From assembly GCA_002633005.1 (NCBI GenBank), contig NMRA01000035.1, positions 124,001 to 188,000 on the forward strand: 64,000 bases of DNA, read 5' to 3'. The position numbers and the translations under genes were made by a program. Each line of letters opens with the position of its first letter. Position 1 is the stretch's first letter. Below the pieces are notes generated by a model. It had not been told where the DNA came from. It did not search any database and worked only from the letters and a program-made list of their open reading frames with translations. Of this stretch, positions 19,529 to 60,404 are shown piece by piece. Origin of the DNA: Phoronis australis (Eukaryota; Animalia; Phoronida).

Positions 19529-19552
19529 CTTTCCCTTGAGCTTCTTAAACAT
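19529..19552 (-). CDS. Candidate alternative first coding exon (MFKKLKGK)
   Basis: acaggATG TTT AAG AAG CTC AAG GGA AAG|gtcagt, phase 0 with A at -3. The Lys-rich end is like known ankyrin first exons. Confidence 0.6.
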
Positions 19553-22500
19553 CCTGTAATTCCTTCAACAGTCACACCCTCACACAGACAGAACTGGCAG
19601 ATTTCGAAATGATGGCGAAATAAATCCAAAAAAGTGAAAATCTGCAAGTCAAAAATCTAGAGTCTCCATGAAGGCCCTGGAGACCAGGTTTTACTCTCAG
19701 TGCAAAATGGCTGTTTAGGGCGGGAGAAGTTCTTGGTTGAACAACACAGGACAGAAATATACCCACAACAGCGCGCTCTGTGTTGGTAAGTCTGTCTCTC
19801 ATTGGTGTACTATTTCAAAACAGCAGCTCAGGGCTGGTATTCCTTATTGGGAGAGCACAGGATGCCATGCTGTGATGATTGACAGATGGGGTGGAGGCAG
19901 CTGGAAACAATGCTGCCACCTAATGTTGCCAAGCGGAAGCACTGGCCAAGAATCAATTCAGCTCAGCAAAGGCGACACCGAACGTTATGCAAATCTGAAA
20001 ACTCAGCAATCCCATAAGAATCACAGCATACGATAAGACAGCCTGGCAGTACTAATTCCAGAGCTTCCTGGAAGTTGTTCTCACAAACTACTCATTCTAC
20101 GCCACATTATTTGACATTGAGATTCAATCAACAATGACAATTGACACTTGTACACCACAATGTAGATAAAATGGAGAACTATGCGCTGTCTCAGAACACA
20201 GAACTGTGATGACTGCCAACAACAGCGACTGTGTGGCTAGAAAATCAATGAAATCGTCTGGTAGATCGAATCAAGATTCCTGAGAGAGCAAACACGCAAT
20301 TCTGGCTAGAACACCTTAATATCATGAGTAAAAGCATGAGCAAGCTGTGTTTTGGTATGTCAGCCTATTAAGTTTTAATGGCAATTCCTATTAACTGGAT
20401 ACGTTTGAAAGTGTGGTAAACGTCAATAGGAAGCTGGCGAGATCAAATCTGGAAGTGAGCGCAGAGGTTGGATAATGAATGTAAAATAAATAGGGTGATT
20501 AATTTTACCGATTTAATGAAAGAAAAAATACAGGCAGTGGAAAGTGGTAAGTTTATTTAAAAGCTACCCAATGCTATTGCGTCATTTCTATGAGTAAACT
20601 AGACATAAATAGGCAAAAGTCAGTTCCGTTCTTCACGGATGAAATCATTTTGTTAAACAAGTTCTAGATGTAATTGTTGACTGGTTCACGGACAGAGACT
20701 CAATCTTTACAATAGCAAGTAACTGTTACATCTAATGAAACTTCTAAACAGGGCAGAATTTATAAATAGCTTTTCACTTGCCCATAAAAATGCTCAAATT
20801 TTAATGTAATGGGCTTGGGAGCCCATCTGACAATTTCAAAACCTAAAATTACAAAAATCAATAAAACTTTATTATTTTAGTAACAATGTCCATACAAGTC
20901 CAAAAACGTGGCATGTTATACTCCCACACACAGAAAGTCAGTTTACAAATTGCTTTCTGAACATCCTCATATGACCAGGCAAGTGCAGTCAGTGAGATGA
21001 TCAATATATCAACCTAACCAGTGAGTAACGCCACCTATCTACAGAACACTAAACCAAAAGTTACAGGCTGAAAGCAAAGACAGTGAAGATGATGTGATAC
21101 CACAGCAATGTCCATTTTGTCAGTGCTACTGGTACTATGTCACATCCAAAATAATTATAATGCAAAACTTTTTGTAGGTGTTCTGACACTTGAACATAAA
21201 CATCATATTTAATTATGGTCAAATCACCCCAATTTTCGGACACATGATAGACAAGCAAAATTTATTTTTATTTTTTTCATCAAAGAAAAGTAGAACCAAC
21301 TAAATCCATTATTCTCCAAATTCTATATCTTAGCTACCACCGGACATGTTTTGAGAAATAATTAGCATTCACAACAATGCTAGAAATCAGAAAAATTAAA
21401 AAAATCAGTTTCATTTGACATATTTTTTTTCAAAATTTGCAAGATTTTACTCAAAAACCTACAGCAACCACAGTTTTGTCACTGCACGTGAGTGAATACA
21501 GTTCTAAATATGGCACATCAACAACTATGACCATCTCGCTGAATTTAAAACTCCAAAAACATATCTGAGAAACGCCGAGCTCTTGATTACAAAATAATCA
21601 AACAACATTGTAATGTCATGTCTTGGGTTGGTGGCGGGGTGAATCTTATGGTTTCAATTTTCGTAATTATACATAGATGAGTGCGATATCAAATGCAAAA
21701 AAAACAGCTGAGGTACAAAAAATATTAGGATCAAATTAGTCATTAATATTTCACTACGGTAAAAACATTATTTTGTAACCTGCTATTATCCTTCAGTTTC
21801 CAACTGTCGATCTGTCAATTACCTTGCCACTGCACTGACACAGTTTGAGATTAATGTCTGAAGGCAATTAAGGCCCAGCTCCAATCAAATCAAACTAAAT
21901 TGCCAATATCCTTGGCTATTCTTCAATAATGCAGGCTAAAGTTCCTGACAAGATGTCATAATACGTAAATTAAGGCAAGACTCAAAGACAGACAAAAAAA
22001 GAAACTGCGGCCAAAAACAATGACAAATCAGATAATGTGTTTGCTTAAAGCAAAAATTGCCCACACAGCACAAGACAAAGACTACAATGCCATATGGTTT
22101 TGCAATCTAACTTTGCACAGTTTAAACCAATAGTTCTAAACAATGGGTGTGCAAAACAGCTCAAGAAAGAAGAAAAAGTCAAACCATTCTGCAGCATCCA
22201 AAGGTGTACCTGTAATCACAGAACAACAAGGACCAACCACTAGACAGGGTCACTTATTAATAAAAACTACAACAGATTTGATTATTTTTCAAATATTACC
22301 TAAAGTTTGTCCGTATTTTTAAAAGAAAATTGAAACTACCATAATGTAAGGCATGCAACTGTTCATAATAAGCTAAATCTTGGGAGTGGAAGTCACGTCT
22401 GTAGTGGAGTGCTCCAGCAGTGTGTAGCCTAACACCAAAAAGACACTTTTGGCAGCAACAAATACTAACAATTAAGAGTGATTTACAAATAGAAACAGTG

Positions 22501-25415
22501 ACTTAAGATGAAACACCAGGATGTCACATAATGATGTTGCAGTCTGGCCTCATAATTTTGAAGGTGCCAAGAGGTTTTAAATGAGTAGGACCAAGGTTAA
22601 ACTCCTTCAATCATGAACTGAAATAATGCATGATAGACAAACCCCAGGTGAACCTGAAGACCACTGGCAACAGACAGTTCACCACCAACAGGTTCTATAA
22701 ATAGACAACCTAGTGATTCCTGCCACATGATATCATGAACAAACAACTTTGAGTAGTAGATGTGTGTCTGAGGAGGATGCGGAAAAAATCGCTACAATCC
22801 ACCTATTTCCCTTTTTGAGTTCCCCAAAGAGCCTGTGTAAGCCAAAGAATGGCGCCCATTCATTAAGACTTTGGTATGGGATTATCTTCAGCTTAGTCTG
22901 CGTCCGGTATTAGCACTCAGAGACGATGATAGGAACAGCGACTTGCCGGGATGTGCTTTTGAACCCATTACAAATTTATTGAACTCCTATTTTGATAAAG
23001 CACGCAAATTCCAAACTTATGCCTTTAAAATCACTTACGATAACGACATCAATGTTAAAAATCCTGAACTGGATATCAAGTTTGCAGTGAAAATATAGCT
23101 GCAAAAAGCAATCAATAAACTCCACTAGGTATTAATCATCAATCAAATAAAGTCATGAAAGCTAACTAGTCATAAAAAATCCTAAGTGATCTCCACATCA
23201 TTGAGAGTTTTGCAAAAAGATGACGTAGCCCTTGGTTATGTGCAAAATCTAAAACAAGTTTACTGCCTCCTCAAGACAACCGAGAGGCACTCACTATAGG
23301 GACCAGATTTCGATGCAATCAGCACATTACTCAATATTTAATCCTGGCTTTCTTACCAAAAACTTACAATACAGTGTTCTCACCAGGTTTTTGAGACTCT
23401 GCACTCAAAATTTGACCCCAGGGCTCAATTTTCAATTATAATTATTATTTACATTGTCATATCAGTGAATTTTGACTACAGAGCTGTGCTTACATTTAGA
23501 AATGACAAAAACATGCTCAACAGTTCCTATGCAGTCACACCACATTTAACCTTGTGAAAACAGGAATACAGTAAGTTTCCTTCAATTCGAACAAACCTAA
23601 TGGCCAAAATTTTTCTCATTTTTTAAAAGTTCAATTTGTTGTCATGTTTGTTGATGAGAGTCGTACTTCATAGCATTTTCAAATAATTAAGTTATAGAGC
23701 TTGGAATGCTCAAAGAGGAAAATTTTCAAGGCGATGCATCATTCCACAAATAAACAGGCTTGTGTGATAGATTTTCTCTTTTTTGCAAAATTTAACTGAA
23801 ATAAACAATTTGCACGAATAAAGTCAAAAGAATGATAAAAAAGACATGAAAAAGAGAAAACTGGAAATCAAGTAAGAGGAAATTGAAGCCAAAAAAGAGA
23901 AAATCCTCTCACAAGAGGAAAATTCCAAGCCCTGAAGTTATCTTGTCTTTTTGTTTGAAATTTTCATTTAAATAAAATTTTACTGTTCTGCCATATTACA
24001 TTCTAATTTGAAGAAAGTTTACTGTAACTTAGGTGTGTAAGTGGAACTATTGATGGATTTATAGAGACTACAAATAAGAATAGACACAAATCAATGAGAG
24101 GTCTTTCAAGAAACTTCTCGGAGACTTATAGAATTATCTTCCTCCTTGAGGTGAAACAAAGGACAGACAGCAGTGACATTAACTTCATGGAAAAATCCCC
24201 AATCAATTATCCTGTGATTTAAATCATACTATACATGCATACAACTGAAGTCTTCATCCACATTCATCTTCTAAGGGTGACATTTTGATGTGTGCTAATT
24301 CTTTACTTATGTAGCTCACAATATGGCTGACAAATGAAATTATGTTTTGTCAAATGTATCCACAAAATCAGGATTAAAGGCAAATTTATTCTATTACTAC
24401 CATGGTTTGTAATGTGTAGGTCTCATAAAAACATGGAAATTTTTCCAATATTTGTAGTAAAGCAAAAATGACAATTTCAGCAATTGTTTGTGTGCGATAT
24501 TAGTGGAGTATTACGGTACACAGAAAAGTTGACTTGCACAGACTCTAGAACTATGTCGTCGCCATAGATACTCAAACAATGCAAAATGTCCAGGTTTCTG
24601 TCAGTTGTTGTTGAAGCTTCATAGTTTTCACCTCAAACTAAGTCCACCAGAGCGACAAGATTGTGACAGCTGGAATGCACAACAGCTTTTCCTCACAAAC
24701 TGCAGCAAGGACGACTAGGTAACATCTCATACCAAGACAGTCTAACATCCTGACAGTTAATAAGATGCACGAAACTCCAGAATAAAGGTAGTGTGATCTA
24801 CTGCTTTGCTTTAATGCATGGCAATATCTGGAGTAGACTTGAATGATCTTGCGTATTCACGAGTTAAAAAATGTGTCTCATAATATTCTTGATCCCAATA
24901 GGATTCTATTTCGGAGTTAAATGAGATTGGTCAACACCTAAAATTGCAATGGTGCATGTACACAATGCCTGTGATAATGGAAATAGACTGGTATCACATT
25001 AAGGAACATCATTAGACTGATTTTATGGCAGTAAAAGGCTTAAGGCAACTTCTGTTTTTGAGCCAGCTAAACGGGGTAAAATGCAGCTTTAAATAAAGGA
25101 ACTCTTTTCCCAGTTCACCAACAAAAATTGTTTATAGATTTTTTCCGACACATTCATTTATCAGTTTATGACAGTCGTTAAGTGTGATTAAGTCGTCGCG
25201 GTCAAATAAACTATAATTACATTTTTAATACATTAAAACACACCAATGAGCTTGGACACAGATTACTTTTCAGCTACAACCACGGGTGGTAATCCTCTAG
25301 GAACTTTGCTTCATATCAAGATGGATAGTCTTCACAAAACAGAAATAATCTTAGGATTGCATCACTCATCGTTGGCACAAAACTTCCCTTGACACTGACT
25401 GCACTTGCTTAACTG

Positions 25416-25549
25416 GGCCAACAGGCACAAGAAAATTGAACTGCAGTCACAGGCCAACAGGCACAAGAAAATTGAACTGCAGTCACAGGCCAACAGGCAC
25501 AAGAAAATTGAGCTGCAATCACAGGCCAACAGGCACAAGAAAATTGAGC
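25416..25549. repeat. 36-bp minisatellite, ~3.7 copies
   Basis: Unit ggccaacaggcacaagaaaattgaactgcagtcaca starts at 25416, 25452, 25488 and 25524. Confidence 0.95.
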
Positions 25550-26604
25550 CTTAATTATGCCTTATTTTGACTTGAATAATAATCATTGCATTCAGATTCT
25601 AACACAAGGACAATGCAGAGAAGGGCAATTCTTCCCTATTTCACACAAAGTAAAATACGTTTCAGCTATGTAGGAGGTGTGTGGAAATAATGGAAATGCA
25701 AGATTTTGCAGGTAAGGGGTCTGCAAAGTTAGAAGCCGGAAATTGCCTGTGTGCGAAATTTCGGATTTAGGTTCATTTCTAGACCGTAATAACTGTATGC
25801 AGTTCCCGCTGATACAATTGTTGACTTTCAGTGGTAAGGTGGCATAATTTGGACTGTTAAGCAGATCAGTGACTAATGTTAGCCTCGGCAAACTTTTATG
25901 CCAAAGAAACACGCATTCCAATGGTCTGCTGATGCCAGGACTTCTGCATGGCGTGAATTTGTTTACATCAGCATGAAAAGATGTGCTGGAGTCTTGTTTG
26001 TTGATTAACAACAAGGTTTGCAGCATGATTTGATGTCCAGGTCTCTCTTTTAGTTGCAGGAGGTTGGTGTGTGCTTGTGTCTTACAGGAGACAAATTAGT
26101 TGGACATGAGCAACAGGCTTAGCAGTGTCACATTCTATTGACATAGTGCAAAGAGTGGGAAGTATGATTTCTGAATACAAGAATCACGGCTGTTGCCTGT
26201 GTTACTGGTATACGGAATTTCAGAAATTCAGCGATTGTAAATTTCAGCGGTGTGCAAAATGGGAGGAACTTTCAACTGCCATTGAAGAGCATTATGTGAA
26301 AAAAGACGGACAATAAATTTGTTTCACAAATAATTTTGAGGGTGCAAAATGAGCGGAGGTTCAAAATAGTGGAAGAATTACTGTAACTGATCAAAACAAC
26401 AATGGTTGAGGTCAAACACATTCTGCATGAAAATTTATAGATCCAAATTGTGAATTTATGTGATTGGTTTGCAGTTAAGCCATTTAGACTAACCACAAAT
26501 CGTCAACAGCCACGGTTTTCTAAAAAAGATTCCTGCAGTAAAATGTTCAAACATATTTAACAACTAAGATAATTAATGATTCAGAACTTTTAACCCCATT
26601 TGTG

Positions 26605-26795
26605 TGTTACGGTAACAATTCTTCAGTTTAGGAAAAAATTCAGTAGACAGGTGACATCTCGTTTTGTCCAATTTCTCAACAAAAATAACTTTTCAGCTTT
26701 TAGCCATTGTCTATATGCCAAACAACATTAGGTAAAATTTTGAGCATTTGCAACAATGTGGTAAGCCTCTGAAAAATAGAAATACGGCAATTTTA
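26605..26795 (+). repeat. Dispersed repeat (family D)
   Basis: aatttctcaacaaaaataacttttcag, ccaaacaacatt and gtggtaagcctctgaa.atagaaata are shared with 57693-57885. A diverged inverted copy lies at ~33755-33920. Confidence 0.7.
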
Positions 26796-28588
26796 GTAAT
26801 TAATATTTTTGTCTTAAATTGAACAATTAGAAACATTGGATTGATATTCAGAATAGTTTCTCTTACACTGCAAAAACTGAAGAAACCAACTAAATAATAA
26901 TAAAATTGACATGTTCGATGTCACTTTTTCCACTCATGCTGGTTCCAGGCAAGTGGAAAAAAAACAAAAGGAAATAAAATTGGGCAATGCTTAACTGGAT
27001 TACCAGCCGCATTATAGTAGGGAAGGTTAGTCCAATGTTACATAAAACATGTAGCTTGTTAAGCAAAGCAGTTGACTAACTTCCCCGGGCTGAAGAGACT
27101 GAATCGATTGGACACAGCTTTGCCATCTTCACTTGATTAGAAAAATCGCATTATCTTTGAAGAAGCCACAGAATAACTTCTGCAGCTACTGACTATTTAG
27201 ACTCTTCAGATTCCAGTCAGAAGCTGTTTGAACAGAAAGAATATCGATAAGACAATCAAAGATGACTTAACACGCTCCGTATTCCAACGACCGTCTTAAT
27301 TACACCGCCTGATTTAGCCAATCAAACTGCGTGAGCTCGCAGGACTGGTGAAATGTGAATGGACTGCGACGAAATTCCAAGGGGAACATTGAGGGTCTAC
27401 AGACGACAGTACAGTACACGTCACAACTATTCACAGACAATGAAGTGGAATTCCCCGTCATGGCACCTGCACGGAAGTGAAAGTGTCAGAGTAGTCGTCC
27501 CATGTGACTGAGAATGAATCAAGAGGAATAAAAGAGGAAAGTTGGTGGATGATCAATTCCGTAATCAGAATTTCACTGTCGTTAAAGTTATTACCAGTCA
27601 TAGCTGTTGCTCACAAAATTAGCCGTAATTACAAAGAAATGGAAATTTGTCGTACTGTATTGTAACGCTGAGTTTTGTCAGTACATAGTTGCATTCAGTA
27701 CATGAACAAATTTTTCATTGCATGAAAAATAATAAACTATCTTTTCCTAGCCTCCCACATTGAGCTCAAGAAACACAACTGTCATAAATTTTTTCCAATT
27801 TAGGACACAGCATGGCAGATTCTTTTTGAAAAAGATAAGTTGCTCCAAATAAACGCTTTACCTTCAATGCCACAGTTGCCATCAAACAATTTTATTAAAA
27901 ATTGTGGACAATTATAATGATATCAAACTCTGGAAAACGAGAAAAGGTGAATTTTGACAATGATATGAAAAAAGTAAAAAGAAAAAAATGATTATTTTTG
28001 TCCGAAATTGGTAATATTCACTGTGACCATTTCCATGAATTTCCTGAATTTTTGTCTCAAACGCGTATTTACTTTTCCCCAAAATACAAGCCCCCATTCG
28101 TGCAGAGTTCTCCCCAACTGAGAAGAGTACACGCGTCAGAAATGCGAATGTGCCGGCATTGTGCAGCAGTTGACATTCTGTGTAGTACAAAAAGCACTAG
28201 CAGTTGTACTATTTTTAGGTGCAAATTTACCTGCCATGTTACCCATAGTACTTCAGACGATGTCATTTTTCCAAACAGGTCATAATTTTCACACAGCTCG
28301 CGGGCCAGTCAACCGTGTCATAAGTGTCATCAAACAGGACAACGCAGCACATTAAAGCAAGTTGTGGATAACGCTGCTGATGCATCCAAAGATACCAAAC
28401 CTTCATCCACAACATCCCTCACAAAGGATTCTGGATCAACTAGTATTCAAAAATTAACACAGAGGTACACTATCCCCCTTCATAAAAAATGTCAACGTCG
28501 TGCAGGGCCCTTAATTGTTTACCTGAGGAGAAGGTGCCTGTGCCTTCAGTAGGGAGTAAAAATTCTGGTCTTAAATGTGCTGGAAGGT

Positions 28589-28748
28589 CAGTGTTGTAGT
28601 GGTAAAATTAGAGGTAAGTAGGCGCCCAAAGCCCACCGTATCGCCTTGAGCATTGAACGTAACTTAATTAAAGTGTGTAAGCGTTACGTTCAAATGGCAA
28701 AAGGTGGTTGGCTGTGCCTACATGCGCCTATGCCTCACTACAGCATTG
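28589..28748. mobile_element. hAT-type MITE, 160 bp, with 8-bp TSD
   Basis: TIRs are cagtgttgtagtg / cactacagcattg. There is an exact 8-bp TSD tggaaggt at 28581-28588 and 28749-28756, plus internal inverted arms (ttgaacgtaac / gttacgttcaa). Confidence 0.85.
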
Positions 28749-28931
28749 TGGAAGGTGAACAAAAATGGGATGACCAACCACATGAACTGTAGCTGCAAAT
28801 ATGAGACCTAAGCCATTTATCACTTCTGCAACAAACAATGCTGAGAGATCAGCTAAACAAGACCAAACAGAATACCACTAACCTGAACACCAGGAACAAA
28901 CAACTCAAATTTTGTTTGCACGAATACTTAC

Positions 28932-28958
28932 TCGTTTAATTCGAATCAGCGTTGACAT
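28932..28958 (-). CDS. Candidate alternative first coding exon (MSTLIRIKR)
   Basis: gatcATG TCA ACG CTG ATT CGA ATT AAA CGA|gtaagt, phase 0 with A at -3. It is preceded by a repeat-containing UTR-like stretch and a GAGA tract ~370 nt upstream. Confidence 0.6.
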
Positions 28959-28993
28959 GATCAGAACTGAGAAATCAAAAGCACATCACTGAG

Positions 28994-29079
28994 TGCAGCA
29001 CCTCTGTGCAGCACAAAACTCTCTTCTCTCTCCCCTGTGCAGCACAAAACTCTTCTCTCGTCCCTGTGCAGCACAGCAC
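28994..29079. repeat. ~30-bp tandem repeat in the putative 5' UTR of the MSTLIRIKR exon
   Basis: ctgtgcagcaca occurs three times, separated by aaactc(tc)ttctctc spacers. Confidence 0.85.
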
Positions 29080-29324
29080 CCTGTCTTCTGACCACCACTG
29101 CCACTAGCACCAGTCTTGAGGGTTGATGAACCCAATCACATCAACAGACAGACCAACAAATGACCAGTCTTGTATCAACCCATGGCCCTGCGCTGATTAG
29201 CAACCTGCTGTAGGCTGAACAAGGATCATATTTACATTGGCTACATCACAAGGCTCCACTTTGTTTAGATGGCCTGCTCAATCAAAGGGATAGAATGACT
29301 ACCACTTGTATGCACAGAGATGTG

Positions 29325-29359
29325 CTCTCTCTCCCTCTCTCTCCCTCTCTCTCTCTCTC
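29325..29359. repeat. (CT)n/(GA)n microsatellite
   Basis: ctctctctccctctctctccctctctctctctctc. Confidence 0.9.
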
Positions 29360-30407
29360 AAGTCCCTCAGTCTCAGCAATTAACTCATATCCAGCTGCCC
29401 TTTCCTGGTTAAATTCTGTTCAGGATGAAGGAATTGCTCTAATGAGGCAGGTCCCTCCTCTAAGAAGCCACCACAATTAAACAAGAACACACTCCGTCAG
29501 CATCGTCCTCGCATAAGCAGCTTTCAACACTGTTGCTTGATAACTGAACACGTAATACCAGCGATTAATAATAATCACACTTCTTACACGCATCTCCTCT
29601 CAATGGTTCGTCTTAGCCTTACCGACAGCCGCGAGACCACATTGAGAAAGGCAAACCTCTCCAATTAACCGCGCTTGCTGATCAATAGACTAATAGGTAA
29701 TAGTTGTGAATTTCGTTATTAACTACATTTATTCCCCATCCAGATGATTGGATTTTCAATCAGTCTTCTACAAGTGAACGGTTGTCAATAACAATTGGTG
29801 AACAACTCTCTTCATTCTCACGACGTCTCCCTCCGGAATTATTGCGGAGCACTGAGGCCTCGGTACACGCACCACCTTTGCCAGTAACTACAAGGCTATC
29901 ACGTGAATGACCGCACACTCAATCAAATATCCTTAACACAAGTGCACGGATTAAAATGCATGAAAGCCAATAGTGTCTTGAAGTGACAGTCACCAATGTA
30001 ACTACATCAGTGTAAACACGAAATTGGATTAAATTGTAGAACCGCCATATTAGGTATATCCTGTCAATACCATTGTGAATCCAAACGAAAAAAGTAGTTT
30101 CAACTCTCTTTGCATTAAGACTTTAATTGTTCTTTACTTTTAAGTAATAATAATAATAATAATATCTAGCCATACCCTACAAACTATTTGAGTAGAAGTA
30201 CATTTATTGACCATTAGGAAAAGGAATTAATATTAAGGGTCTATGTTAATGTTTATCAACATGCTGGCACATGCAACACAAATGAAATTTGTAATGGAAT
30301 TTTATGCAAAAAAGAATTGCAAGAAATTAAAGTAGACGATTTGTGAACAGAATTGTTTTTCGGTTTTAATGCCATGCATTAAACGGCTTAATTCAATGTT
30401 GCCATCA

Positions 30408-30705
30408 TGTCTTAATCATGTCATTTTTTTCGTTGAGTCGTAAATACTCTCACTGTCTAGAGTCATCTCTAATATATTTCATCTGTCTTAGTTAATTTTT
30501 ACCATTATTTGTCATTTAGTTATTGTCTTAATTATCAACCTGTTTTAATTGTATCTTTGTTACGTATATTTCATTGTTGTTTTATTACTTCATTGTATTA
30601 TATTACTGTTTTTCTTGTTGAGGGCCCTCTTGGAAAGCAGTGCTATCACTGAAGAGGCCACCCTCATTTTAAATATCACAATAATAAATAAATAAATAAA
30701 TAAAT
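30408..30705 (+). mobile_element. Non-LTR retroelement 3' end (copy 2) with (AAAT)n tail
   Basis: Inverted copy of 5178-5468 ending in ataataaataaataaataaataaat. A microsatellite tail is typical of CR1/L2-type LINEs and their SINEs; the family was not determined. Confidence 0.8.
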
Positions 30706-32881
30706 ATGACGGTCTGAGATCTATTAAAGAAAAATCTGCACCTCAACAGACATCAGTGATTTCTAAATATGGACAAAAATCTGAGTTCCATTAGCATTGG
30801 ATGATCTTAGGACAACCCTCTGTGTCTCACAATTATCGTAATGATAGGAATAAAAAATCAACGGCGCTAATCCATGTGGCATAGAAATTGATAAGACAGG
30901 TCTAAGTGGTGTTTTGCCTGGAACACGATCAAAGCATCGATTTCCGTTATTTGTTATTCTACTTCCGTGAGAAGACCTCAGAATGGTTATACGGACAGTT
31001 TGTTAGTCGTGTTATGTGGCCATGATCCAACTACTTCGGTATTTTGTGCCTAGAGCCCCATTGAATGTTGCAGAAAATGTTCCTCAGAAAGCAATTGTAT
31101 GTAAGGAACTTCTTCGATAAATGACCACATCACAACCTCTTGCTATATGGCACATCATGGTTTACTCATCACGGTATTATGTAACACACAAAGTTATGTA
31201 GCGGGCAACCCAGCGCAGAGTAACATCATATACTCATAGGTAAAATGTAGTCATCTGGTCAGTACCTAGCTCGAAGAACAAAAAAATTGTGTTTTGCCAT
31301 CATGACACTGCGACTACCTTATATACCATGGTTTGGAACAAACGTCTGACCGAACAAGCTGAACTGATTTGCATTATAACATGATAAAATTCCAATGAAA
31401 ATTATTATATCAAATTTTCAACAATGCAAATACTCATCAAAATCTAGATAGATTCAACAACTAAATATACAGACTATACTATAATATTTCCTGCGTGCAG
31501 TGAACATTCATTCGCGACCATGAATCATTCAAATTCAATGTTACTGAGACACTGTTATGCTACGGCTAACCTAAGAAAATAACAAAAAAATCTAAATTTT
31601 CGCTGGCAAACCAACGTTTTAAAATTCAAAGAACTAGTGATGATTAGAAACAAGAAATGACTTCCTGTCAAAGACAGGAATCCAGTAATGCAGTTTGGTT
31701 CAAAAGTGCGTCGACATTGATCCACTGTTTCAGTCTCATTGATCACGTCTTCTCATATTATACTAACTATCACTCATGCAATAATACAATTACATCTTAT
31801 CGAAAAGTCTTATTGAGGCCATGTCATAGAGTTATGAATACCGTCCAATTTAGACCATGACATGTGAAAAACTTTGCAGTGAAGCAATGAGACATCAGTA
31901 GCCAAACATGATCATGAGAGCGAAATCCGAAGAAGGGTCGACTATCTCTCTGTAAATATTACATATAACTCATTGTGAACAAAACTACTACTGGCTCAGA
32001 TTAATCACCCATGGGAAGGTCATTGGTTTTTATGTATTGTGAATTGTGTCTGGATTTTTTTGTCATGTGCAAATAGGGGAGAGGGTGAATAAACATTTCA
32101 TTACTTGGGTACTAAATTCCTAACATGAATAAGTTAAGTCACCAAATATTTGCCATCCGTACTCAAATGTTCCCCGTAAGCTGTAAAAGTTACTCCAGAG
32201 ATTTTATGTCATAACAGTCTATCCAATGAGTGATTACGAAATTGAAATCAAAATTATTTTAGCTAATAATTCTACATTTGTAGATATCAGTCTGTACTGT
32301 GCTAGAGTACATAATGGTTTATGCATACGAGTTTTTAGTCTAAGTTTACTACACTTGACCAACCCTATAATCGTACTACAGACTTCACAGGAAATTTCAG
32401 CCTTAATGCAGGGGTCATCGAGTGCAAACTATGATTATGAAGTTATCCACCTAAGTCATAACGAACTCAAGCATAGAATAGACACTTACCTTCATTTTGC
32501 ACAAAAGAAAATAGAAAATTCCTAGAACAATTTCTGAGTTCTATTTTGAGTAAAAAAGCTAGACTACGGACCCTGCAATTCTCAACTGTTTATAACATTT
32601 TGGCATCAGTATTACCATTGGTAGTTATAACACATTTCCACACTTAACATTTTTCCCAACATAGGGACACTATAAAAGTCAATTACAAACAATCGAGGCT
32701 AATATCTGTCAAGATTTTCGCATAAGTTTATTTGCTCAACTTGACGCATAGTCACATCACATTCAGGCCCAAGCTCGGCCAATTGTGCAGACACCAGCAC
32801 AGATCAATCGAGTAAACACAGAGCTACTTCAAACATCACAGGTGTACCCGTACTCGCTTCACTTCATTGATGTTAACTTAC

Positions 32882-32902
32882 CGTAGTTGTAGTCGCTTTC
32901 AT
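32882..32902 (-). CDS. Candidate alternative first coding exon (MKATTTT)
   Basis: actgATG AAA GCG ACT ACA ACT ACG|gtaagt, with a strong donor and phase 0 but a weak Kozak context. Confidence 0.35.
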
Positions 32903-35399
32903 CAGTTGAAAGCGCTAGAGTTCCTCGAAAAAATCAGACATAGCCTTCATTGTTGGCTAAAGATATATTGATGATCACTGCTTACTGTGGTCACATGCTC
33001 CATTGGGAGAACTGGGACTCTGAGCACATTAAGGTGATTTACCCGTACGAAAGCGTTTTTGGCATTGCAAAAGTTCATTGTTTATGATGAATAACGAAAT
33101 TATGTCACCTAAGACAGCTTTACTTCCCAAAACAAAAAACAGGATTTGGAAAGATCCCCCACCCCAACCTTTGCACCAATATGTATGGTATTACGTTTTA
33201 GGGACAAAAACAAAAAAATGAACACACAGGACTTCAAAAACGTGGGTGTTAAGATATCAGTTTTTGATTTGGGAAGACCAAAATGATCATTTGAAAAAAG
33301 CATGTTTTAAGTAACGAGATATTGAGTTGACAGTCCTACAATATTTTTATTGAAACTGTCAAATAGAAAACAGTAATTGTTATCACAAGTGACAATTTCT
33401 TTCATAATTTTTCCTTTTTTAACCATAAATACATAATCTCTCAACCTTTATTGCACAGAACAGCTTTCGTGTTAATCAAACCCACAAATGATACCACACC
33501 CATCTCAGAAATTGTGGACACTGGGTAGATGGGGACATCTATTGGCAGTTTTGTGAACTCGCTTAAGTGCAGTGCAAACTTAAGAGACAATATATTTTCA
33601 GAAACCTCTTAGTTTCCATCATACATTATTAATGATTATGTCTGGTTAGAAGGATGCGTGTACCATAAGAAGCATGCAGGAAGACGCAATAAACATGTGC
33701 TAGACACAGACCCCCGGATACATGGTAATTATTTCGCATTCAAGTAATTGTCAAAATTGACATTTTTTCTATTTTTCAAAGGAAACTTAATAAATAAGCA
33801 AATTTTGTTTGTTGTCATCTACATAGTAGAAACCAAGCTGATCGCGCGCTAAAATTTTCTTAGTTTTATTTTTGTTGAAAGAAATTTGTCAAAATGAAAC
33901 TTCACTCGTTTGTCCTATTTACAAATTACAGAATTGAATTACTACACCAAACTGATAATTTTTTAAAATGACATGTAACTTGACAAATTTGCCACTTTTG
34001 AGAAAAATCGCAAGCTGTATAATTTCTAGATTAAAGTTCAATGAGCTGTAAATTTAACAGCTTGAATCAGTAGAGAACTATTTGAAGTGAATTCTAACAA
34101 TCATAGCTAATATATCAAAGTTAATTATGACTAAATTAAATTATTTGGTCATGAAAATCAAAGAAAATAGGACAAATCCGCACCAATTTGTGAATCAAGA
34201 TCAAGTCATGTACTTCTGCCATGTTATTCCTGGATTAAAAGGACATTTAAATATAAAGCACTGTCTGTCATTATTGGAAAGAATTAAGACAATTCCAATT
34301 GCTTTCTTTTCGCTCATGTTAGGACGTATCATGTCAGAATACCAAGTTTACTAACTCTGCAAGAAGTAAAATTATAATCAAATACAGATTCAGCCTTTAA
34401 TTTTGATTCTATAATTGCTCTAGACAGATTCAACCAGCCATCAATAGCTCAGAGCTGAGACACGTACAATACCAAAAAAGAGCATGCAAACAACAGAAAA
34501 TAGTTATTATTAGCTTTCCAATGCCAATGTCTCGTCATAATTTCCCAGTTGTGAATCGACTTATGGTAAAATGTCGATATCGAATCCCCAATGAAACCAG
34601 GATGACCTCAAAGACAGCAGTCATTACTGTGTGCTCATTATGAATGCAGCATAAACAGGGATGACTCATCCTCATGTACACAGCTACTAGTACATGTTTC
34701 TAAAGGGACACTAGGTGAGACGGTGAAGTTGCTTCGACAGAATTTGAAAACAACGTTAATTATAACATGGTTAACTTGTATCAACAGCAAAAGCAGCAGG
34801 AATAAGAAAGATATTATAGTGACAATCAAGATAAATATTTGGAGTATACCGTGATAAAAAGTTTCTACCCGAGTCTGACCATTATTTCGTTATAGCCAAG
34901 TTCAAAGGGACATGTTTTATTCTAAAACTAGTCACCGCTTTTAACAAAAAATTGGAACACTGAGCATAACTGATTTCATTGGTCCTCAGGACATGAATCT
35001 CTACTAGAAGTCAGCATTACTTTCACCCATCATAGATAAAGCTCTAAGTTACTGTAATCACCCAATTGGCTTGCAACTGGGGAACTCCAAAATAAAAACG
35101 CGAGTGGGTTTGTACTCGGATGGGCTTATATCAACGTTAGTGTAAAACTACCCATGGGCTTGAGCTGTACATCTGTGCATAAGCCCAAGGCGTGTATGAA
35201 ACGCAAGCCCTCATTTAAAGTAAGCGAGTTGGGCTTAAATGGGGAGAAGAAGAAGGGTTTACAACCCAATAGGTGGACATATACACTAGAATATGCCGAA
35301 AGGGGGGTATACTCGAGATGGGTACAATCTGTTGAATTTGACTTTTTATGCAATTAATTAGGTCAGATGACAATGATTTTAGTTAATTTAAAAAAAAGA

Positions 35400-35638
35400 A
35401 ATGGTACATTGAAAGCAATAACAACTTTGTGTAATTTTTTCACAAAAATCGTGAATGTCTTATGTTTATCAGCTCTTCATGTAAATGTGAAACATTTTAA
35501 TTCTTACATGCACTTTGAAGAATGCTACAAAAGTATGACGTTTGAAAGTTTCGTATGAATCCGATCAGCCATTTCTGGGACATGATGTTCCGAAGTTGGC
35601 CACATTTTGACAATTTTCTAGGGTCCCACAAAGCCTTA
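35400..35638 (+). mobile_element. Old AT-rich non-autonomous element (family C)
   Basis: gaaagtttcgtatgaatccgatcagccatttctgggacatgatgttccgaag...ttttctagggtccc matches 50730-50812. The left boundary is approximate. Confidence 0.6.
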
Positions 35639-35657
35639 AACAACAGGTATCACTCAC

Positions 35658-35666
35658 CATAGACAT
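35658..35666 (-). CDS. Candidate alternative first coding exon (MSM)
   Basis: gcagacATG TCT ATG|gtgagt, with a strong donor, phase 0 and a purine at -3. Confidence 0.45.
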
Positions 35667-36825: not shown

Positions 36826-36826
<1 letters not shown>

Positions 36827-36868
<42 letters not shown>

Positions 36869-43330: not shown

Positions 43331-43663
43331 TTTTTGCTAACTTTGACTAAAAAGACACGCTCACGTCACCCAAGTAATACGAGATATTTGACTAAATCAC
43401 TGTATAGACTAGTCCATAACATTCTACATGACCTCAAGTTTTTGTTTATTTTCAATATATTTATTTCCAAATGTATGTTTTGTCTCACCAATTTTAATAT
43501 CATATTGGCTATCAAAACAAATTTCACGGTTACAAAAGAAAAAAATGTTTACATACACTAGATCATAAAACATTACCGAATACCCGAATACCCGAATACC
43601 CGGTCCAAAATCCAGACTGGCACCATAAAACCCACCTCCCGAAACAACCACTGAAGCACTTAC

Positions 43664-43750
43664 TTCTTCTATGGTATCAGATGCTTTTTCCATGTGTCCG
43701 AAAAGTGAGATGACCACTCGGTCCCCCCTGCCTGGGCTTTTCGTCGACAT
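43664..43750 (-). CDS. Candidate alternative first coding exon (MSTKSPGRGDRVVISLFGHMEKASDTIEE)
   Basis: ggcaATG TCG...GAA GAA|gtaagt gives 29 open codons in phase 0, with a purine at -3 and locally higher GC. No homology evidence. Confidence 0.55.
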
Positions 43751-46700
43751 TGCCCGCTGTCTGAAAAGTTATTTTGCGAAAGTCTCCACTCCACTTAAAT
43801 CCTGCTCTGCACAACCGATGGGAACAGCTATAGCCCACTAACGTCTGGTGAATAAACTGGCGTCTAAGTTGCATAGCAGGAATGTTGAGGCTGCTTATGG
43901 AATTGGCCTAGATGATGATACAGTGGTGTTTTTGGGTCGAGGAAAAAATGATAATTACAGGGTCATTAACAGTCAGACTTGTTTACTCAGTGTCATGTAC
44001 AACAAATGAAATTACTACAGTAGAAACTGTACTCAGTATAACCTTGCCTACGTATTTAGGACATAATATGGTAGATATGAAATTTAATTTTTTCATAAAA
44101 GATGAGTAATGTCAAACCAATGCTTCAGTTCTGTACCATAGCAACCAAGAGGCGCTTTTTGTGGACATGCACAAACATTAGTGAAAAAAAATATGAATAA
44201 CTGCGATTATTTTTCTCAGAAATTCATAAGATGCTTCCATACAAAGATTATATGTGGTGTGAATACACTGTTTTAAATGCCACGCAGACATTTTTTCGTC
44301 GAAAATTGTAGTTAGAAGCCCTAGATCCACCAGAGTATAATGATGACCAAGTAATTCTTAATCATGCAGTTTCCTGTCACTATATTCTCATGTTAAGAGT
44401 ATATGAATCACTTCTGACAAGATCTGAAACAAGTAAGCGTTACGCATTTAAGTTACCAATATGAAGATGAACAAATTAAAGCCTACATCCCCTCCCAGCT
44501 GGATGAGTCCAAGCTGTGGACCAGTGCACAGATTTGCCTGCCCTCTATTTTCCACTCAACAAACTAGAACACATCAATAAAATTCATCAAGCAGAAAGAA
44601 TGCCTTATTTGGTAAAAAGCTAGCATCACAAATCCGCTTCAAGCATTCCAGCATCCATAATAAGGTTGATTGATGCAACTACGCTTAGCAACGTATTGGA
44701 ACGATCCTCAGCCTAAATAATGGGGGGTTCAAATAACCAATAAAATAGAACATAACTCATTAACTGCAGGTACCAGATACAAGAACAAGAGAAAAGTAAA
44801 TTACAACAGACTTATGTCAGCTTAATTACCCTCGCGTTCCCTAGGGGTAAAGGCTGAATTAGTTTTGAATTTAGACAGCAGATTTATTAAGAAATTGATA
44901 CAGACAAGTACATTTGCAGTGATGGCCGAGAGAGAAGATGCATTGTGAATGCTTTCATTGTATTAAAAACGACAAGAACAAGTGCATTTGCAAAAGAGAA
45001 ACTGGATACAAAATACTTAAGTTTGAATTGTATGAATGTCTGCTGTTGAATAGGCCTACCAGTTTGCTAAAAAGCAAACCTGTTCATCTGGGTCAAAAAG
45101 AGAGTATTGAGGTTAAAGAAACACATGTGACCTTTTGGATGATAACACCATTCATAAGTTTCGGGTTTCATAGCCCTTCTTTAAGAAGACTTGGAGACCA
45201 CAGTAATAAATTTATGAATATCCTAGCATCATTTCAGAGGTCAAAAATTGTCTTTCCAAACAAATTTGCATTGGATTAACCGACTTCCGGAAAAGCATAC
45301 ACAATATTTGATTGATTAATTAAGGTAAAGAAGGTTCTCAAGATTTACGTGACTTTCTCCATCAACACACATGAGGTTTTTTCTGCATCAGACACTACAA
45401 ACTCTATAGAGAGGCCATCGTCTCACAAACATGGTATGAATATCGATTGACAGTGAAATTATATTCCCTCGGGAAGAACACTACATCATTACGATGACCG
45501 TGACAGCAGTGAAAATATTTCGCAGCTAAGGACAGTTACTAATGGCAACATTTGCCGAAGTGTGTGTGTGTTCAAGACCTCATTTCATGAAATCACATGG
45601 TCAATACTTTTGAAACATGAGTCACGACTGCTGATAAAGTCAGAGGGAAATTAAGGTCAACACATTTAGATGACAAGTAGACAATATGCTAATTTACTAA
45701 TGTATTGCTTTTTTACAAATTATCATTCGAATACAAGGTTGCAACTTCAAAAAAACACGTTAACTGTGTCTCAAATGCTATAAACATTATCAAGATATCT
45801 AATTCGTTAGATCAGGGGCAACATTTGCACGAGTACTTGAACTGCCACCTAGGGGTACACGAGAGAATGTCAAGTTTGGCATGACGACTGGTTGTAAAGC
45901 ATTGGGGTTGTTGGATGGAGATGCACCATGAGGAGTCTGGCTTGAATGCAACATTTTTAACTCATTACGTGGAGATCAAGTCTGTGACGGACACCACTAA
46001 AGGTTTGGCACAAGCAGTGTCTGTTCAAATCAATCTTTCACAAATGTTTTAAGGTCATGTAGGACCTTACTGATAAGTCTGGGTATTCAGCCTCATTACA
46101 AAACTATAGATTTTAACTCAGTAAAAGATATCTTTTTGAAAGAAGAAAGGCTGAAGAATTTGACTTTGGTCTTTTTCCAAATGTCTAATTACGTGGGTCA
46201 CGTGACCATGTATTTTTAGTAAAATTTAGCAAACAAGGAATGTGCGTTGATAGCAAACAACGGAATCAATACCATGATCAAATTGTATTTGATGTGAATG
46301 TTCAAGATGAGAGCTCAAAAATGCTACCAGTTTTCTAAAATACCGGTTTACTTTCGTCTTATGCAAAAATGAAAATCATAAAAGTTCTACTTTTAATAGT
46401 CTCTCGGGCAAAAGTGGAGAACTTTATAAACATTTCCCACCAGCATTTTGGAAAACCTACATAAAGCATTATATATAAAAGTTTCATGCCAATTCAATAC
46501 CATACAATGTTTTGAAGTTAATCACATTTGGGCATTTTTCTAGCATGCTACATAACAACTGGAAATTGCAAGCTGAAATTCTAATTTGATAAAATTATGT
46601 CAATTCCTCTATCAAACCCAGGTAATATATAAGAATGCAAACTTCGGCATTCGGCATGCTAAAATATTCAATAATTTCAAAACCAAGTCTTCCTTGCGCG

Positions 46701-49700: not shown

Positions 49701-50379
49701 GAACAAGGGGTTAGCTTACAGGTCAATACACAAACACTCCACACTGAACTGCCTCATCTAGAAAACTTAATTTGATGCCACATTCCAAACAGGTGCTCAT
49801 TATCAGAAATTATGGCAGGGTAATAAAAAGGTGCCCTTTTATCTGTCACACTTTACTCATACCATCCAGTCAATCTGACCTATTTTTCGTGTAATCAACT
49901 CCCACTGTAGCCTACACTAAATCTAATCAACAAGAGTAACTTGCCCCTTTCATAATCGGTTCACTTTGCTTTGAAAATTTCCTTTAAGGCTTAAAAAGCT
50001 TTGTCTAAGCACAACTTCATACATGGTAGTTTTATAAGGCCAATCAGAGTGTGTGGACATGACGTTTAGAGCTGACAAGTCGAACAAAAAGTCGTACATG
50101 ACAATTGAGAGTGTAGACAGTGGCCCAAATAGCCTATGAACCTGTGTAGACTAGGGTTTAGTCACGTCCAACATTGTTATGATAATGCTCAAAGGGAACA
50201 GTGCAGATTTTTCTGCAGAAGTACAACTACTTCAAAATACATCTGAGTTTAAGGTTACACTAGACAACACTGTGCATTTTGCCCAATATATACAATCCTA
50301 TAAAATTCAATTCAGTGGAAGTACATATTTTCTGACATTACAAAGCCTGCAGAATTTTATTTTTGACTTGCCTGAACAT

Positions 50380-50812
50380 GTCCTTTAGTAAAATTTTGTG
50401 AAAAAGAAAGTTACAATGGTAGTGAAAGATTGGTATCAATAACACGACCAAATTCCATTTGATAAATGCTCGTGATGAAATTTCGGAAAAAAACGTCTTA
50501 GTTTTCAAAGTTTTCATTTCGTTTTTGTTTTAAGCAACTTTTGAGTTTTCTCAATAAAATCCCAGAAGTCCTATTTTGATAGCCCCTCCCATAAACGTGG
50601 AACATGTTAAAAAAAATACTCACGGAAGTCCTATTTTTATATGACCCCTCGCATAAAGGCTGAACATGTTAAAAACAATACCTAACACCATGTTGGAGAA
50701 CAGTACATAAAGTACAACATCTGAAACTTCAAAGTTTCATAAGAACGAGATCAGCCACTTCGGAGATATGATGTTCCGAACGAGGTGAAATTTGGACATT
50801 TTCCTCGGACCC
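50380..50812 (+). mobile_element. Old AT-rich non-autonomous element (family C)
   Basis: Shares aaagtttcat..gatcagcca.tt..gatgttccgaa..ttggacattttc..ggaccc with ~35400-35630 (+), ~43005-43330 (-), ~18110-18258 (+) and ~46380-46545 (+). It has an internal ~58-bp duplication at ~50566-50681. Boundaries are approximate. Confidence 0.6.
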
Positions 50813-56800: not shown

Positions 56801-57692
56801 AGGTAAAGCTATGTAACCTTAAAGAATTTTGACTAAGTAACTGTCAGCGCATGAAAGGATTGCACTGAACAATCCCCAAAAATCATTAAATACCTCAGTA
56901 CAGGCCGGAGGACCAGTATTGAAGTACAATTGAGCAATCAATAATAGATACGGATTATCCACCATTAAAAATACACGATGGCTGGCAGTTCAATTATACC
57001 CAAGCCCGCAGCCGCACCAAACGCGAGTGAATAAGCCAGCAATGATTATACAAGGCAAACATACGTGTGGATGAAATATGTTTAACCAAAGCACCGAGTT
57101 TTAATTTAAAACATCCTAATTCAAGCATCAAACACAAACGACTGCCAAATTTGTTATTTATCCATCTATTACTCAAGGTAGGTGCACCTTTTTTACAAAG
57201 ACCATTAATTGTTGTTAAGATGACAAGTTTCTAGCTAATTCAAAATTTTCAGACACATCTTGCATATGCCTTTTTAACATGACCGCCTATTAGTCATATC
57301 ATTCAATAACCAATAACTAGGTCACAAAAAGGCGCCAACACCTTTTTAAGGTCAAAGGTCAGCCAGATAAGCTAGTCTGGACTAAACAAATACACACAGG
57401 GGGTAGATGACATGAAGGGGGTTGACACATGGCACTTGTTACTGATGATAGAAACTGGTAATTAGGACAGATTAAAGTATTTAGCAGTACCAGATATGAT
57501 AAGTTGTGGGTGTATACTTCTTGAACAAATTCACATAAGAAAAATCAGATTATATCAAAATATCCATTTGAGAATAAAAGTTAAGGGAATATTCATGAAT
57601 GGAAAAACAGTCAGTGTAACTTAGTTTCCTAGAATTTCACGTTCTGAAATATCTTAAGAGTGTACGACTTTAAATTCAATAAGTGGCGCTCG

Positions 57693-57885
57693 TACGGTAA
57701 AAACTCCTCAGTTTATTACACAATATAGGGGACAAGTGAAATTTCATTTTGTCAAATTTCTCAACAAAAATAACTTTTCAGAAAAATCTACTTTACTTTT
57801 AGCGTGCTTTGTACGCTTTTACCAAACAACATTTGGTAATATTTTGATCAACGTGGTAAGCCTCTGAATATAGAAATATGACAAT
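57693..57885 (+). repeat. Dispersed repeat (family D)
   Basis: Co-linear similarity with 26605-26795. Confidence 0.7.
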
Positions 57886-58782
57886 ATTTGCGAGTGCTTG
57901 TGACCTATATTGAAGAACTTTTACCTCAAGACAACGATAGAACCTATGCCTGCGTTCAGGCAGTCACGTGGGATGGTTAGCCCACATATTGATGAACTAC
58001 TTTCTACTTTCAATCTATTCAGATGATAAATACGAGGAACCGTTACTCATTAGCACCGCACGGTGAATATAAAGTCATATAAATGCACTTGTTGGCAGAC
58101 ATGAAATCTACCAATTTTTAATTGAAATGTAATCATTTTACACCATCTTGATCTAGACAAATTACGTGCTTAATTTCTAATACACTATAAGCATTTTTAT
58201 TAACCTGTCAGAGCTTTCAGGAAGTATGACCATAATCTGGTCATCGGTGCACACAGTTGGTGCATTAAAATTGACCCATGGTTGACATATCATGACCTGT
58301 TTTAAATAATGAATGACCTGTAATCAAATATCTCATTTGCATGCAATAACTCTTCTGGTGTCAAGCTTGACCTCCCCTGTACAGAAAACCTGACCATGAC
58401 AGGACAGTAGTACCCATAACAAGACACTTGGCCAGGTCAGGACATGTTGAGGAGACAGACCACTACTAAAATATACATTACATAGAGGTATTCACAATTC
58501 CACAGCCACATCCAATTTTTAGTCATTTAGGACATTTTTTTCTATAATAAAATTAATACCCAATTCCACAATCCCAGATTCATTTTTCCAATAAAGCCAA
58601 ATTAACTACACAAGGCTGTAACTTATTGCTTGCCAATGGTATATTTTGCTAAAGCCAAAATTAGCTCAGAAAGTAGAAAAACTACATTTTATAACATAAA
58701 GTTAAATTTCACCAGTTATAATTGCTAAAAGCAAGATTAAGGAGGAAGAGAAAAAGTTTTCATTGTGTCATAGCAAAGACAC

Positions 58783-59059
58783 TGTTGCAAACATTTTACC
58801 GTAAGTGTGGTCAGCACGGCTCTCTTGGCCACATCACGTGACCTAATGAATATAAATCTGAAAAGACCACAGTTCGAACCCTGAGGACCTTCTGCTAACC
58901 GTGTAGACGCTCCAGCAACTGAGCCATCGGGACACGAGCGTTTGCATGATTAGCAGAAGTCCTGGGTTTGTGTCCTGGTCGGGGGCAAACTTATATTCAT
59001 TAGGTCACATGATGTCACCAACAGATGGCGTGCTCACCCAACTTAAAATGTTTGCAACA
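58783..59059. mobile_element. Fold-back element with tRNA-derived (Pol III A/B box) arms
   Basis: 16-bp perfect terminal IR tgttgcaaacatttta / taaaatgtttgcaaca, and a 24/25 inner IR acatcacgtgacctaatgaatataa. The minus strand shows tggctcagttg (A box) and ggttcgaac (B box). Confidence 0.75.
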
Positions 59060-60338
59060 TATTTTCCACGCCACATTGAGATTAAGATATTCGTATAAGC
59101 AAAGACACTGTTCTTCATCTAGGCTAGTTAATGCTTGTAGAAAGAAAATCTTTGTACTCAAGCCAGACAATGATAGCTATTGTAATGTGAAAATGCACCT
59201 TATACTAATGGTTATTGATCTGTCAAGTATTGATTAGTGAGACTGGACAGAGATGAAAACAAGACCTTTACACATCAGTGCTCTCCACAGCCTATTTACA
59301 CCTGTCACAGCATCGAGTTTAAATTTTCTCATGGCAAGTTTGGCTTACTTGCATCAAGTTTGAAAACCTGTGCTACGAATTTAAACTTTTGAAAGATTAG
59401 ACACCTTTAGTACACTGTGACATTTTGGATTGTTGGCATCAATTCAATGCATTTATTCTATGACTTAACACAAAAAATCCTCACAGTAGGGACATGGACT
59501 GTCAAACTTTTTCCTTAATTGATAATTCCAGTTGAGTTTGAATTTTGTGTTGCAGAGAACTCTCCACACCATCGCAGGGCTGAATATGATCGAAACCAGA
59601 GTCAAAATTTATATTGAACAAATGGACAAAAACTAAGTACCCATTTGTGACTTCATGATTTATTTTCATACTGATCATGATACAAGATAAAGAGTCAGTT
59701 GTTCACCGGCAAAACCAATTAGTGTCTCTGAGATGCAAGTAATTAGTCGAAAAGGACAGACATCTATGCAGTAATGGATTTTAGAAAGTGTAAAAACATA
59801 TGCCTTGAGTTGACTAGAACCGTGATTTCACATGAGTTTAAATAACGTCATCACTTCTCTAAACAGACAAAAGTTGTTAGGGTAAAAACAATAATTTCGA
59901 CGAATTTTTTAATTTAAATAATAGGTAATGCGTATACACTAATACGGCATAAGGCTGCAAACAACAGCGAGGGAACAACTTTAACTCTGTGAATGTCATA
60001 GTGAACTAAAAAAATCTTTCGAAACCAAGCAAGCTTATTCTTTACCAGTGGTGTGTCAAAATACCAAGTATGTAAATCACCTGCTCCCATGGTGTATTTT
60101 GGAAAACATTAGCAGCAAAACCACATATTACCAGATTACCGCCAATACCGACACAGGTAACTTGTTTTTTCACCTGTCAGGTCAATGAGCAGTCGGCCAT
60201 TTTGGATTTTGTTTACTACACATAAATTTATTTCAATGTTACTTTACAAAATAAAGGAGATGTGTCATGCAAAGACAACTCACAGAACGCTTGAACGGTC
60301 TCCTGAAATTTTCTCAGTAAATCATGCAACGAACATAC

Positions 60339-60404
60339 CTTTTTAGCAGGTGGTTGGCTTGGGGAACCGGCTTCTGCAGCCGGTTTTTCGTCATCGACCG
60401 TCAT
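60339..60404 (-). CDS. ANK2: Ankyrin distal first coding exon (MTVDDEKPAAEAGSPSQPPAKK)
   Basis: gcgcaATGA...AAA AAG|gtatgt, phase 0, so it joins exon 2 in frame. The low-complexity N-terminus ends in KK like vertebrate ANK2/ANK3 first exons. It lies at the edge of the most CpG-rich stretch in the window. Confidence 0.85.

What the first reader, a model, noticed from the sequence alone, without database searches (positions are those of the whole stretch)
19529..60404. Candidate array of alternative first exons giving ankyrin interchangeable N-termini
Seen: the 47-kb intron upstream of exon 2 contains a series of short minus-strand ATG-to-donor units, all phase 0 and so in frame with exon 2. 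They are MTVDDEKPAAEAGSPSQPPAKK (60339-60404), MSTKSPGRGDRVVISLFGHMEKASDTIEE (43664-43750), MSM (35658-35666), MKATTTT (32882-32902), MSTLIRIKR (28932-28958) and MFKKLKGK (19529-19552). Known: vertebrate ANK1/2/3 use several tissue-specific promoters and first exons that splice in phase 0 to this same exon. Inference: this invertebrate locus has its own 'variable first exon + constant core' system of perhaps 4-6 promoters. Caveat: in 47 kb several such units arise by chance, so individual members are unproven.
Basis: partly seen in the sequence, partly recalled or inferred. Interest (0 to 1): 0.75.

Follow-up and report, generated by a model that had tools for sequence, protein, structure and literature searches.

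The report
Ankyrin with three spliced front ends
This invertebrate's ankyrin gene splices three different short front-end exons onto the same protein core, likely from separate promoters as in mouse and fly ankyrins, while the other three proposed starts have no RNA support here, so it is a new example of a known design.

Summary
All six ATG-to-donor units are at the stated coordinates and in phase 0, but their number is at chance level: 19 such units against 15.9 ± 4.3 in simulated sequence and 15 on the opposite strand. RNA data support 3 of 6. Exon 2 (13135-13034) is joined to 60339 (13 reads in two runs, one perhaps from another exon), to 19529 (11 reads in three runs) and to 43664 (one contig from another study). 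Nothing was listed for 35658, 32882 or 28932, but 24 junction reads cannot exclude minor or tissue-restricted use. The 60339 and 19529 exons have in-frame stops just upstream of their ATGs, so each supplies its own N-terminus; 43664 could instead be an in-frame cassette. Separate promoters are inferred, not shown. The layout is known: mouse Ank3 has five phase-0 first exons on a 102-nt repeat-1 exon (PMC4449188), and the Drosophila grimshawi Ank2 locus has three. The scan earlier noted an alternative first exon in vertebrate ankyrin-2 on other DNA. Verdict: real, partly overcounted, a new member of a known kind.

The parts
60339..60404 (-). Distal 5' coding exon A (MTVDDEKPAAEAGSPSQPPAKK), donor AAG|GTATGT, in-frame stop 4 codons upstream of the ATG; the 5' end of the exon is not mapped
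   Evidence: Loose ends at exon 2 match it at 30 of 30 letters: 9 reads in X1 (agreement 0.92), 4 in X3
43664..43750 (-). Middle exon B (MSTKSPGRGDRVVISLFGHMEKASDTIEE), donor GAA|GTAAGT; either an alternative first exon or a 93-nt in-frame cassette starting at 43756
   Evidence: One X4 contig carries 45 nt beyond exon 2; 29 of its 30 printed letters match 43664-43693; cassette option; not listed in X1-X3
19529..19552 (-). Proximal 5' coding exon C (MFKKLKGK), donor AAG|GTCAGT, in-frame stop 4 codons upstream; the transcribed leader reaches about 19700 or further and ends before 19900
   Evidence: Joint 13135-19529 with 4+6+1 reads, sense strand; depth in bins 19401-19900 and none in 19901-20400
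13034..13135 (-). Constant exon 2, 102 nt, ankyrin repeat 1; common acceptor of A, B and C
   Evidence: same length as mouse Ank3 exon 2b (PMC4449188 Table 2) and fly Ank2 exon 2
4599..4796 (-). Exon 3, ankyrin repeats 2-3
   Evidence: Loose ends before 13034 read into it in X1, X2 and X4; boundaries; Pfam Ank (on nearly the same stretch)
3472..3570 (-). Exon 4, ankyrin repeat 4
   Evidence: tblastn and splice sites; Pfam Ank
2202..2387 (-). Exon 5, repeats 5-6; the gene continues beyond the window
   Evidence: 186 nt like mouse Ank3 exon 6
35658..35666 (-). Candidate MSM|GTGAGT: unsupported
   Evidence: Tested only through loose ends at exon 2, none listed; a repeat copy begins 16 nt after the donor
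32882..32902 (-). Candidate MKATTTT|GTAAGT: unsupported
   Evidence: No joint listed; its bin is nearly empty in X1 and X2, and the X3 depth there looks like a repeat at 32410
28932..28958 (-). Candidate MSTLIRIKR|GTAAGT: unsupported, but with a GC-raised, GA-repeat upstream region
   Evidence: No joint listed and no sense depth in 29009-29675; context
60001..62000 (-). CpG-rich stretch (observed/expected about 1.2, against 0.1-0.8 in the intron), the likely main promoter region
   Evidence: promoter role inferred

Best explanation
This canonical ankyrin gene splices three different short upstream exons (60339, 43664, 19529) in frame onto one constant repeat-1 exon, and these are likely alternative first exons transcribed from separate promoters. 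Shown: the three splice junctions; a start codon with an upstream in-frame stop in exons A and C, so these two give different N-termini. Inferred: A belongs to a CpG-rich general promoter and C (probably also B) to CpG-poor internal promoters used in some tissues or stages; whichever promoter fires, its first donor joins the 13135 acceptor, and the phase-0 intron lets any exon of whole codons stay in frame. The main effect is likely control of where and when ankyrin is made, with the 8-29 residue leaders mostly passengers. The other three candidates are likely chance motifs, though one may be a rare exon.
For: Joints and loose ends. Only B allows an open in-frame cassette among AG sites within 330 nt of the donor. 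C's leader passes the AG at about 19641 and no loose end or joint is listed at its upstream edge. CpG rises only around A. A:C read ratios are 9:4, at most 2:6, and 4:1 in X1-X3; Fisher p 0.003-0.08 depending on assumptions, post hoc. Same layout with measured tissue differences in mouse Ank3 (PMC4449188) and three phase-0 ATG exons before the 102-nt exon in fly Ank2.
Against: No transcription start was mapped. An acceptor-like site lies at 60635 upstream of A, so A may follow a non-coding exon. Depth over C's leader is only 1-6 reads, so an upstream junction could be missed. B rests on one contig, 45 nt long on that side, and has an in-frame acceptor option. The A/C difference between runs is weak, and the tissues are unknown. 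No related genome was found to test conservation. One of nine X1 loose ends probably comes from yet another exon (agreement 0.92).
Confidence: 0.72

Rival explanations
1. One promoter with alternative splicing: a shared non-coding first exon near 60.8-61 kb is spliced to A or C as mutually exclusive second exons.
For: Acceptor-like AG with a pyrimidine tract at 60635, and weaker ones at 19710 and 19869; only the distal region is CpG-rich.
Against: No loose end or joint is listed at the upstream edge of exon C in three runs; mouse homologues are described as first exons (PMC4449188), and fly Ank2 is said to have start sites downstream of its first intron (PMC10186683 passage).
Confidence: 0.12
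2. A and C are alternative first exons, but B is an internal 93-nt cassette (acceptor at 43756) included between A and exon 2, lengthening A's N-terminus by 31 residues. This can hold together with the best explanation for A and C.
For: The only open in-frame cassette among the three supported units; mouse Ank3 has such an exon, 2a of 39 nt after 1a; B's upstream region is not CpG-rich.
Against: The better acceptor-like site (after TTTTC) lies 4 nt further upstream and gives 97 nt, out of frame; B's ATG has a purine at -3 and a stop 6 codons upstream.
Confidence: 0.3
3. The full reading of the first stage: five or six of the units are real first exons, the rest active in tissues or stages not sampled.
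For: 3 of 6 picks were real; 24 junction reads miss a 10% exon 8% of the time and a 5% exon 29% of the time; 35658 and 32882 have strong donors; one X1 read may come from another exon; mouse Ank3 has five.
Confidence: 0.12
4. B and C are splicing or transcription noise from cryptic promoters in a long intron.
For: The array count is at chance; no conservation was shown; B is seen once.
Against: C carries 11 of 24 listed junction reads, in 3 of 3 raw-read runs, and is the major form in X2; B is the form assembled in X4; both keep the frame.
Confidence: 0.05

Closest known systems
Mouse Ank3 / human ANK3 first exons 1a-1e (PMC4449188, passages and Table 2; PMC9356056 and PMC3492013, passages)
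   Same: Several short first exons with whole-codon coding parts (57, 63, 114, 36, 24 nt) splice to a 102-nt exon for ankyrin repeat 1; the repeat 5-6 exon is also 186 nt.
   Different: Five exons over about 409 kb with measured tissue bias, against three shown over 47 kb here with no tissue data; no detectable peptide similarity to the vertebrate leaders held; repeats 2-3 are one exon here and two in mouse.
Drosophila Ank2 5' region (D. grimshawi locus L081; isoform models P0031 and P0229)
   Same: Three ATG-to-donor units, all phase 0, within 6.7 kb upstream of the same 102-nt exon; two of them start annotated isoforms.
   Different: Far more compact; the basic unit is the middle one in the fly and the proximal one here; no significant sequence match. 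The fly junctions come from annotation and sequence, not from reads laid here.
Locust, termite and midge ankyrin isoform models (P0047/P0206, P0251/P0032, P0044/P0218)
   Same: Two N-termini per species switch at exactly this residue, one of them short and basic.
   Different: Automatic gene models; their genomic exons were not examined.
Clustered protocadherin and UGT1 'variable first exon + constant core' loci (recalled)
   Same: Promoter choice puts different first exons on constant exons.
   Different: There the variable exons are large paralogues that encode the specificity domain; here they are tiny and unrelated to one another.

Membership tests
Canonical ankyrin (ANK1/2/3, Ank2, unc-44) | N-terminal ankyrin repeats orthologous to repeats 1-6 | tested here: met
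   83% identity over 195 columns to Owenia ankyrin; all 120 listed hits of exon 3 carry ankyrin-repeat plus PF00791/PF17809 annotations; Pfam Ank on 3 of 4 exons, none on exon 2 alone
Canonical ankyrin (ANK1/2/3, Ank2, unc-44) | 24 repeats followed by ZU5-ZU5-UPA and a death domain (PMC5135030) | not testable with these tools
   The gene leaves the window after exon 5 and no genome is held
Ank3-type alternative first-exon array | More than one upstream exon spliced directly to the repeat-1 exon | tested here: met
   60339, 43664 and 19529
Ank3-type alternative first-exon array | Phase-0 junction onto a 102-nt repeat-1 exon | tested here: met
Ank3-type alternative first-exon array | Each exon brings its own start codon | tested here: inconclusive
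   Met for A and C (upstream in-frame stops, no open cassette); open for B
Ank3-type alternative first-exon array | Each exon has its own transcription start and promoter | tested here: inconclusive
Ank3-type alternative first-exon array | Tissue- or stage-biased use | tested here: inconclusive
   Ratios differ between X1-X3, Fisher p 0.003-0.08, small counts, tissues unknown
Ank3-type alternative first-exon array | Exons conserved in related species | not testable with these tools
   No close relative found
Protocadherin/UGT1-type variable-exon cluster (definition recalled) | Variable exons are tandem paralogues that encode a domain | tested here: not met
   No similarity between the units or their flanks; 8-29 codons each

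The most novel reading that the evidence does not exclude
A multi-promoter array in front of ankyrin repeat 1 is ancestral to bilaterians, and the short basic leader of exon C (MFKKLKGK here; similar short basic starts in L008, locust, termite, fly, midge, horseshoe crab and earthworm) is one ancient exon class that gives a cell-type-specific ankyrin an added membrane-binding tip.
Probability: 0.15. Interest if true: 0.5.

Novelty: new member of a known kind. Interest (0 to 1): 0.27.

Why it matters
It corrects the 5' annotation of a core cytoskeletal gene and extends the multi-first-exon layout known from vertebrate ankyrin-G and fly Ank2 to a third lineage, probably a lophotrochozoan. A 2012 review says that the function of the unique 5' exons of ANK3 is not understood (PMC3492013, passage). 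If the layout is ancestral, invertebrates offer a simpler place to test whether the promoters or the peptides matter. A specialist would not be surprised by the finding itself.

Tried and rejected
No genome is held for the window. No RNA holder was listed by index; four runs with the same species label were used. Reads were laid only on 13001-33000 and 12901-20400, so A, B and 35658 were tested only through their junction with exon 2. Search with exon A plus intron read-through: 20 candidates, none at E<=10, proteins over 2000 aa not searched. Search with exon B among 50% representatives: 2 hits, both tandem-repeat proteins, rejected. The closest long-contig exon-2 relative came without DNA. 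The 80 kept metagenome loci (of 266 confirmed) and L081 matched the window only in exons among the 60 best blastn rows. The Atlas gave generic ankyrin clusters. The 24-row tree did not place the organism. A coral origin, which I first guessed, was dropped: the four cnidarian ankyrins in PMC5135030 S2 differ in repeats 1 and 5-6, where the window has the bilaterian form. Homology of exon C's peptide to other short basic leaders is not significant (best score 13 among 65 N-termini, P=0.21; the other five units P 0.32-0.99), and the order of units differs in the fly. A transposon origin of the units is not supported: only a 16-nt match upstream of B, E 0.03. No Rfam family at gathering thresholds. 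No fold or complex job was run.

Full report
Observation. Exons 3-5 follow at 4796-4599, 3570-3472 and 2387-2202. The protein is a canonical ankyrin, 83% identical over 195 columns to the Owenia protein. It has the bilaterian form of repeats 1 and 5-6, not that of the four cnidarian ankyrins in the S2 table of PMC5135030 (rows read by eye). The tree did not resolve the phylum; unchecked notes on this genome suggest a mollusc.

Chance. The intron holds 19 phase-0 ATG-to-donor units under the donor set that covers all six picks, against 15.9 ± 4.3 in 100 Markov simulations and 15 on the plus strand. A donor matrix with recalled values shows an excess at one of four thresholds only (11 against 4), and its top three units have no listed RNA support. 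Sequence alone cannot pick members.

RNA. Three raw-read RNA runs from one study and one contig set from another study carry the same species label; 18-19% of each raw run was read. On 13001-33000 the only listed joint touching exon 2 is 13135-19529, with GT-AG ends on the minus strand and 4, 6 and 1 reads. On 12901-20400 at 95% likeness the same joint appears. Loose ends at exon 2 read the 60339 unit: 9 reads in X1 (agreement 0.92) and 4 in X3 (agreement 1), a 30 of 30 match with next best 19. The X4 contig runs from exon 3 through exon 2 into 45 letters, of which the 30 printed match the 43664 unit at 29 and end at its donor. So 3 of 6 units are spliced to exon 2. Nothing was listed for 28932 or 32882 (laid directly) or for 35658 (tested only at the acceptor). 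Listing needs 3 reads, a consensus hides minorities, and 24 junction reads miss a 10% exon 8% of the time. The 0.92 agreement fits one read from another exon.

First exons or not. A (60339) and C (19529) have in-frame stops 4 codons before their ATG and no open in-frame cassette, so each starts its own protein. C's coverage runs on past 19650, to about 19700 or further, and is absent from 19901 on, with no upstream joint or loose end listed, at a depth of 1-6 (the reach estimate mixes two likeness settings). CpG is enriched around A (about 1.2) and low upstream of B (0.47) and C (0.28). B (43664) could be a first exon or a 93-nt in-frame cassette from an AG at 43757. An acceptor-like site at 60635 means A may follow a non-coding exon. 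A:C use is 9:4, at most 2:6, and 4:1 in X1-X3; Fisher p is 0.003-0.08, post hoc, with tissues unknown.

Mechanism. Most likely, alternative promoters each splice their first donor to the shared acceptor, and the phase-0 intron just before repeat 1 lets any whole-codon exon supply the start. The junctions and the starts of A and C are shown; promoters, tissue bias and the minor role of the peptides are inferred.

Comparison. Mouse Ank3 has five first exons whose coding lengths are all multiples of three, on a 102-nt repeat-1 exon, with tissue-biased use (PMC4449188: passages and the first part of section 16 with Table 2). Human ANK3 is reviewed likewise (PMC9356056 and PMC3492013, passages). 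Database models of ANK2 and ANK3 show many N-termini switching at this residue; ANK1 promoters I know only from recall. In D. grimshawi Ank2 (L081), three ATG units at 5445, 6726 and 10001 end in phase-0 donors upstream of the same 102-nt exon, and a fly paper mentions start sites downstream of the first intron (PMC10186683, passage). Locust, termite and midge models switch N-termini at the same point; the Cimex, Anoplophora and nematode cluster members read showed no such switch, apart from a longer upstream start in Necator models. Nine literature searches listed no paper on ankyrin first exons in a mollusc or annelid; most subscription journals are not in the library.

The bolder reading. 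Exon C's peptide resembles short basic starts in L008, locust, termite, fly and midge and in the horseshoe crab and earthworm rows of PMC5135030 S2. A shuffle test over 65 N-termini gave P=0.21, and the order of units differs in the fly, so homology of single exons is only a lead. Conservation in close relatives could not be tested.

Verdict. A real alternative 5' exon system with three demonstrated members, two of them independent starts. It is a new member of a known kind; interest 0.27.

Noticed in passing
window 60877-60896: Perfect 20-bp palindrome centred on a CACGTG (E-box-like) motif in the CpG-rich region about 470 nt upstream of exon A's ATG.
   Followed up: no
   Followed up: partly
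window 43684: The X4 contig differs from the window at one letter in exon B, which would change Ala to Pro; an allele or a close relative.
   Followed up: no
window 13040-13048 (-): Exon 2 has Ser in the DINTSNA motif where vertebrate ankyrin-B/G have Cys; that this Cys is the palmitoylated site of ankyrin-G is recalled.
   Followed up: no
window 60444 and 19669 (-): Short upstream ATGs lie in the presumed leaders of exons A and C.
   Followed up: no
window 23700-24350, 26340-26800, 28589-28735, 30430-30650: Highly transcribed dispersed-repeat fragments in the intron, 90-95% like many reads on both strands; families not identified.
   Followed up: no
window 7587-7699: Assembly gap of 88 N next to a 25-nt G run inside intron 2.
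   Followed up: no
L081 5445-5996: The old fly annotation calls the distal Ank2 5' exon a separate 183-aa gene; it has a phase-0 donor at 5961, and similar starts lead ankyrin models in other insects.
   Followed up: partly
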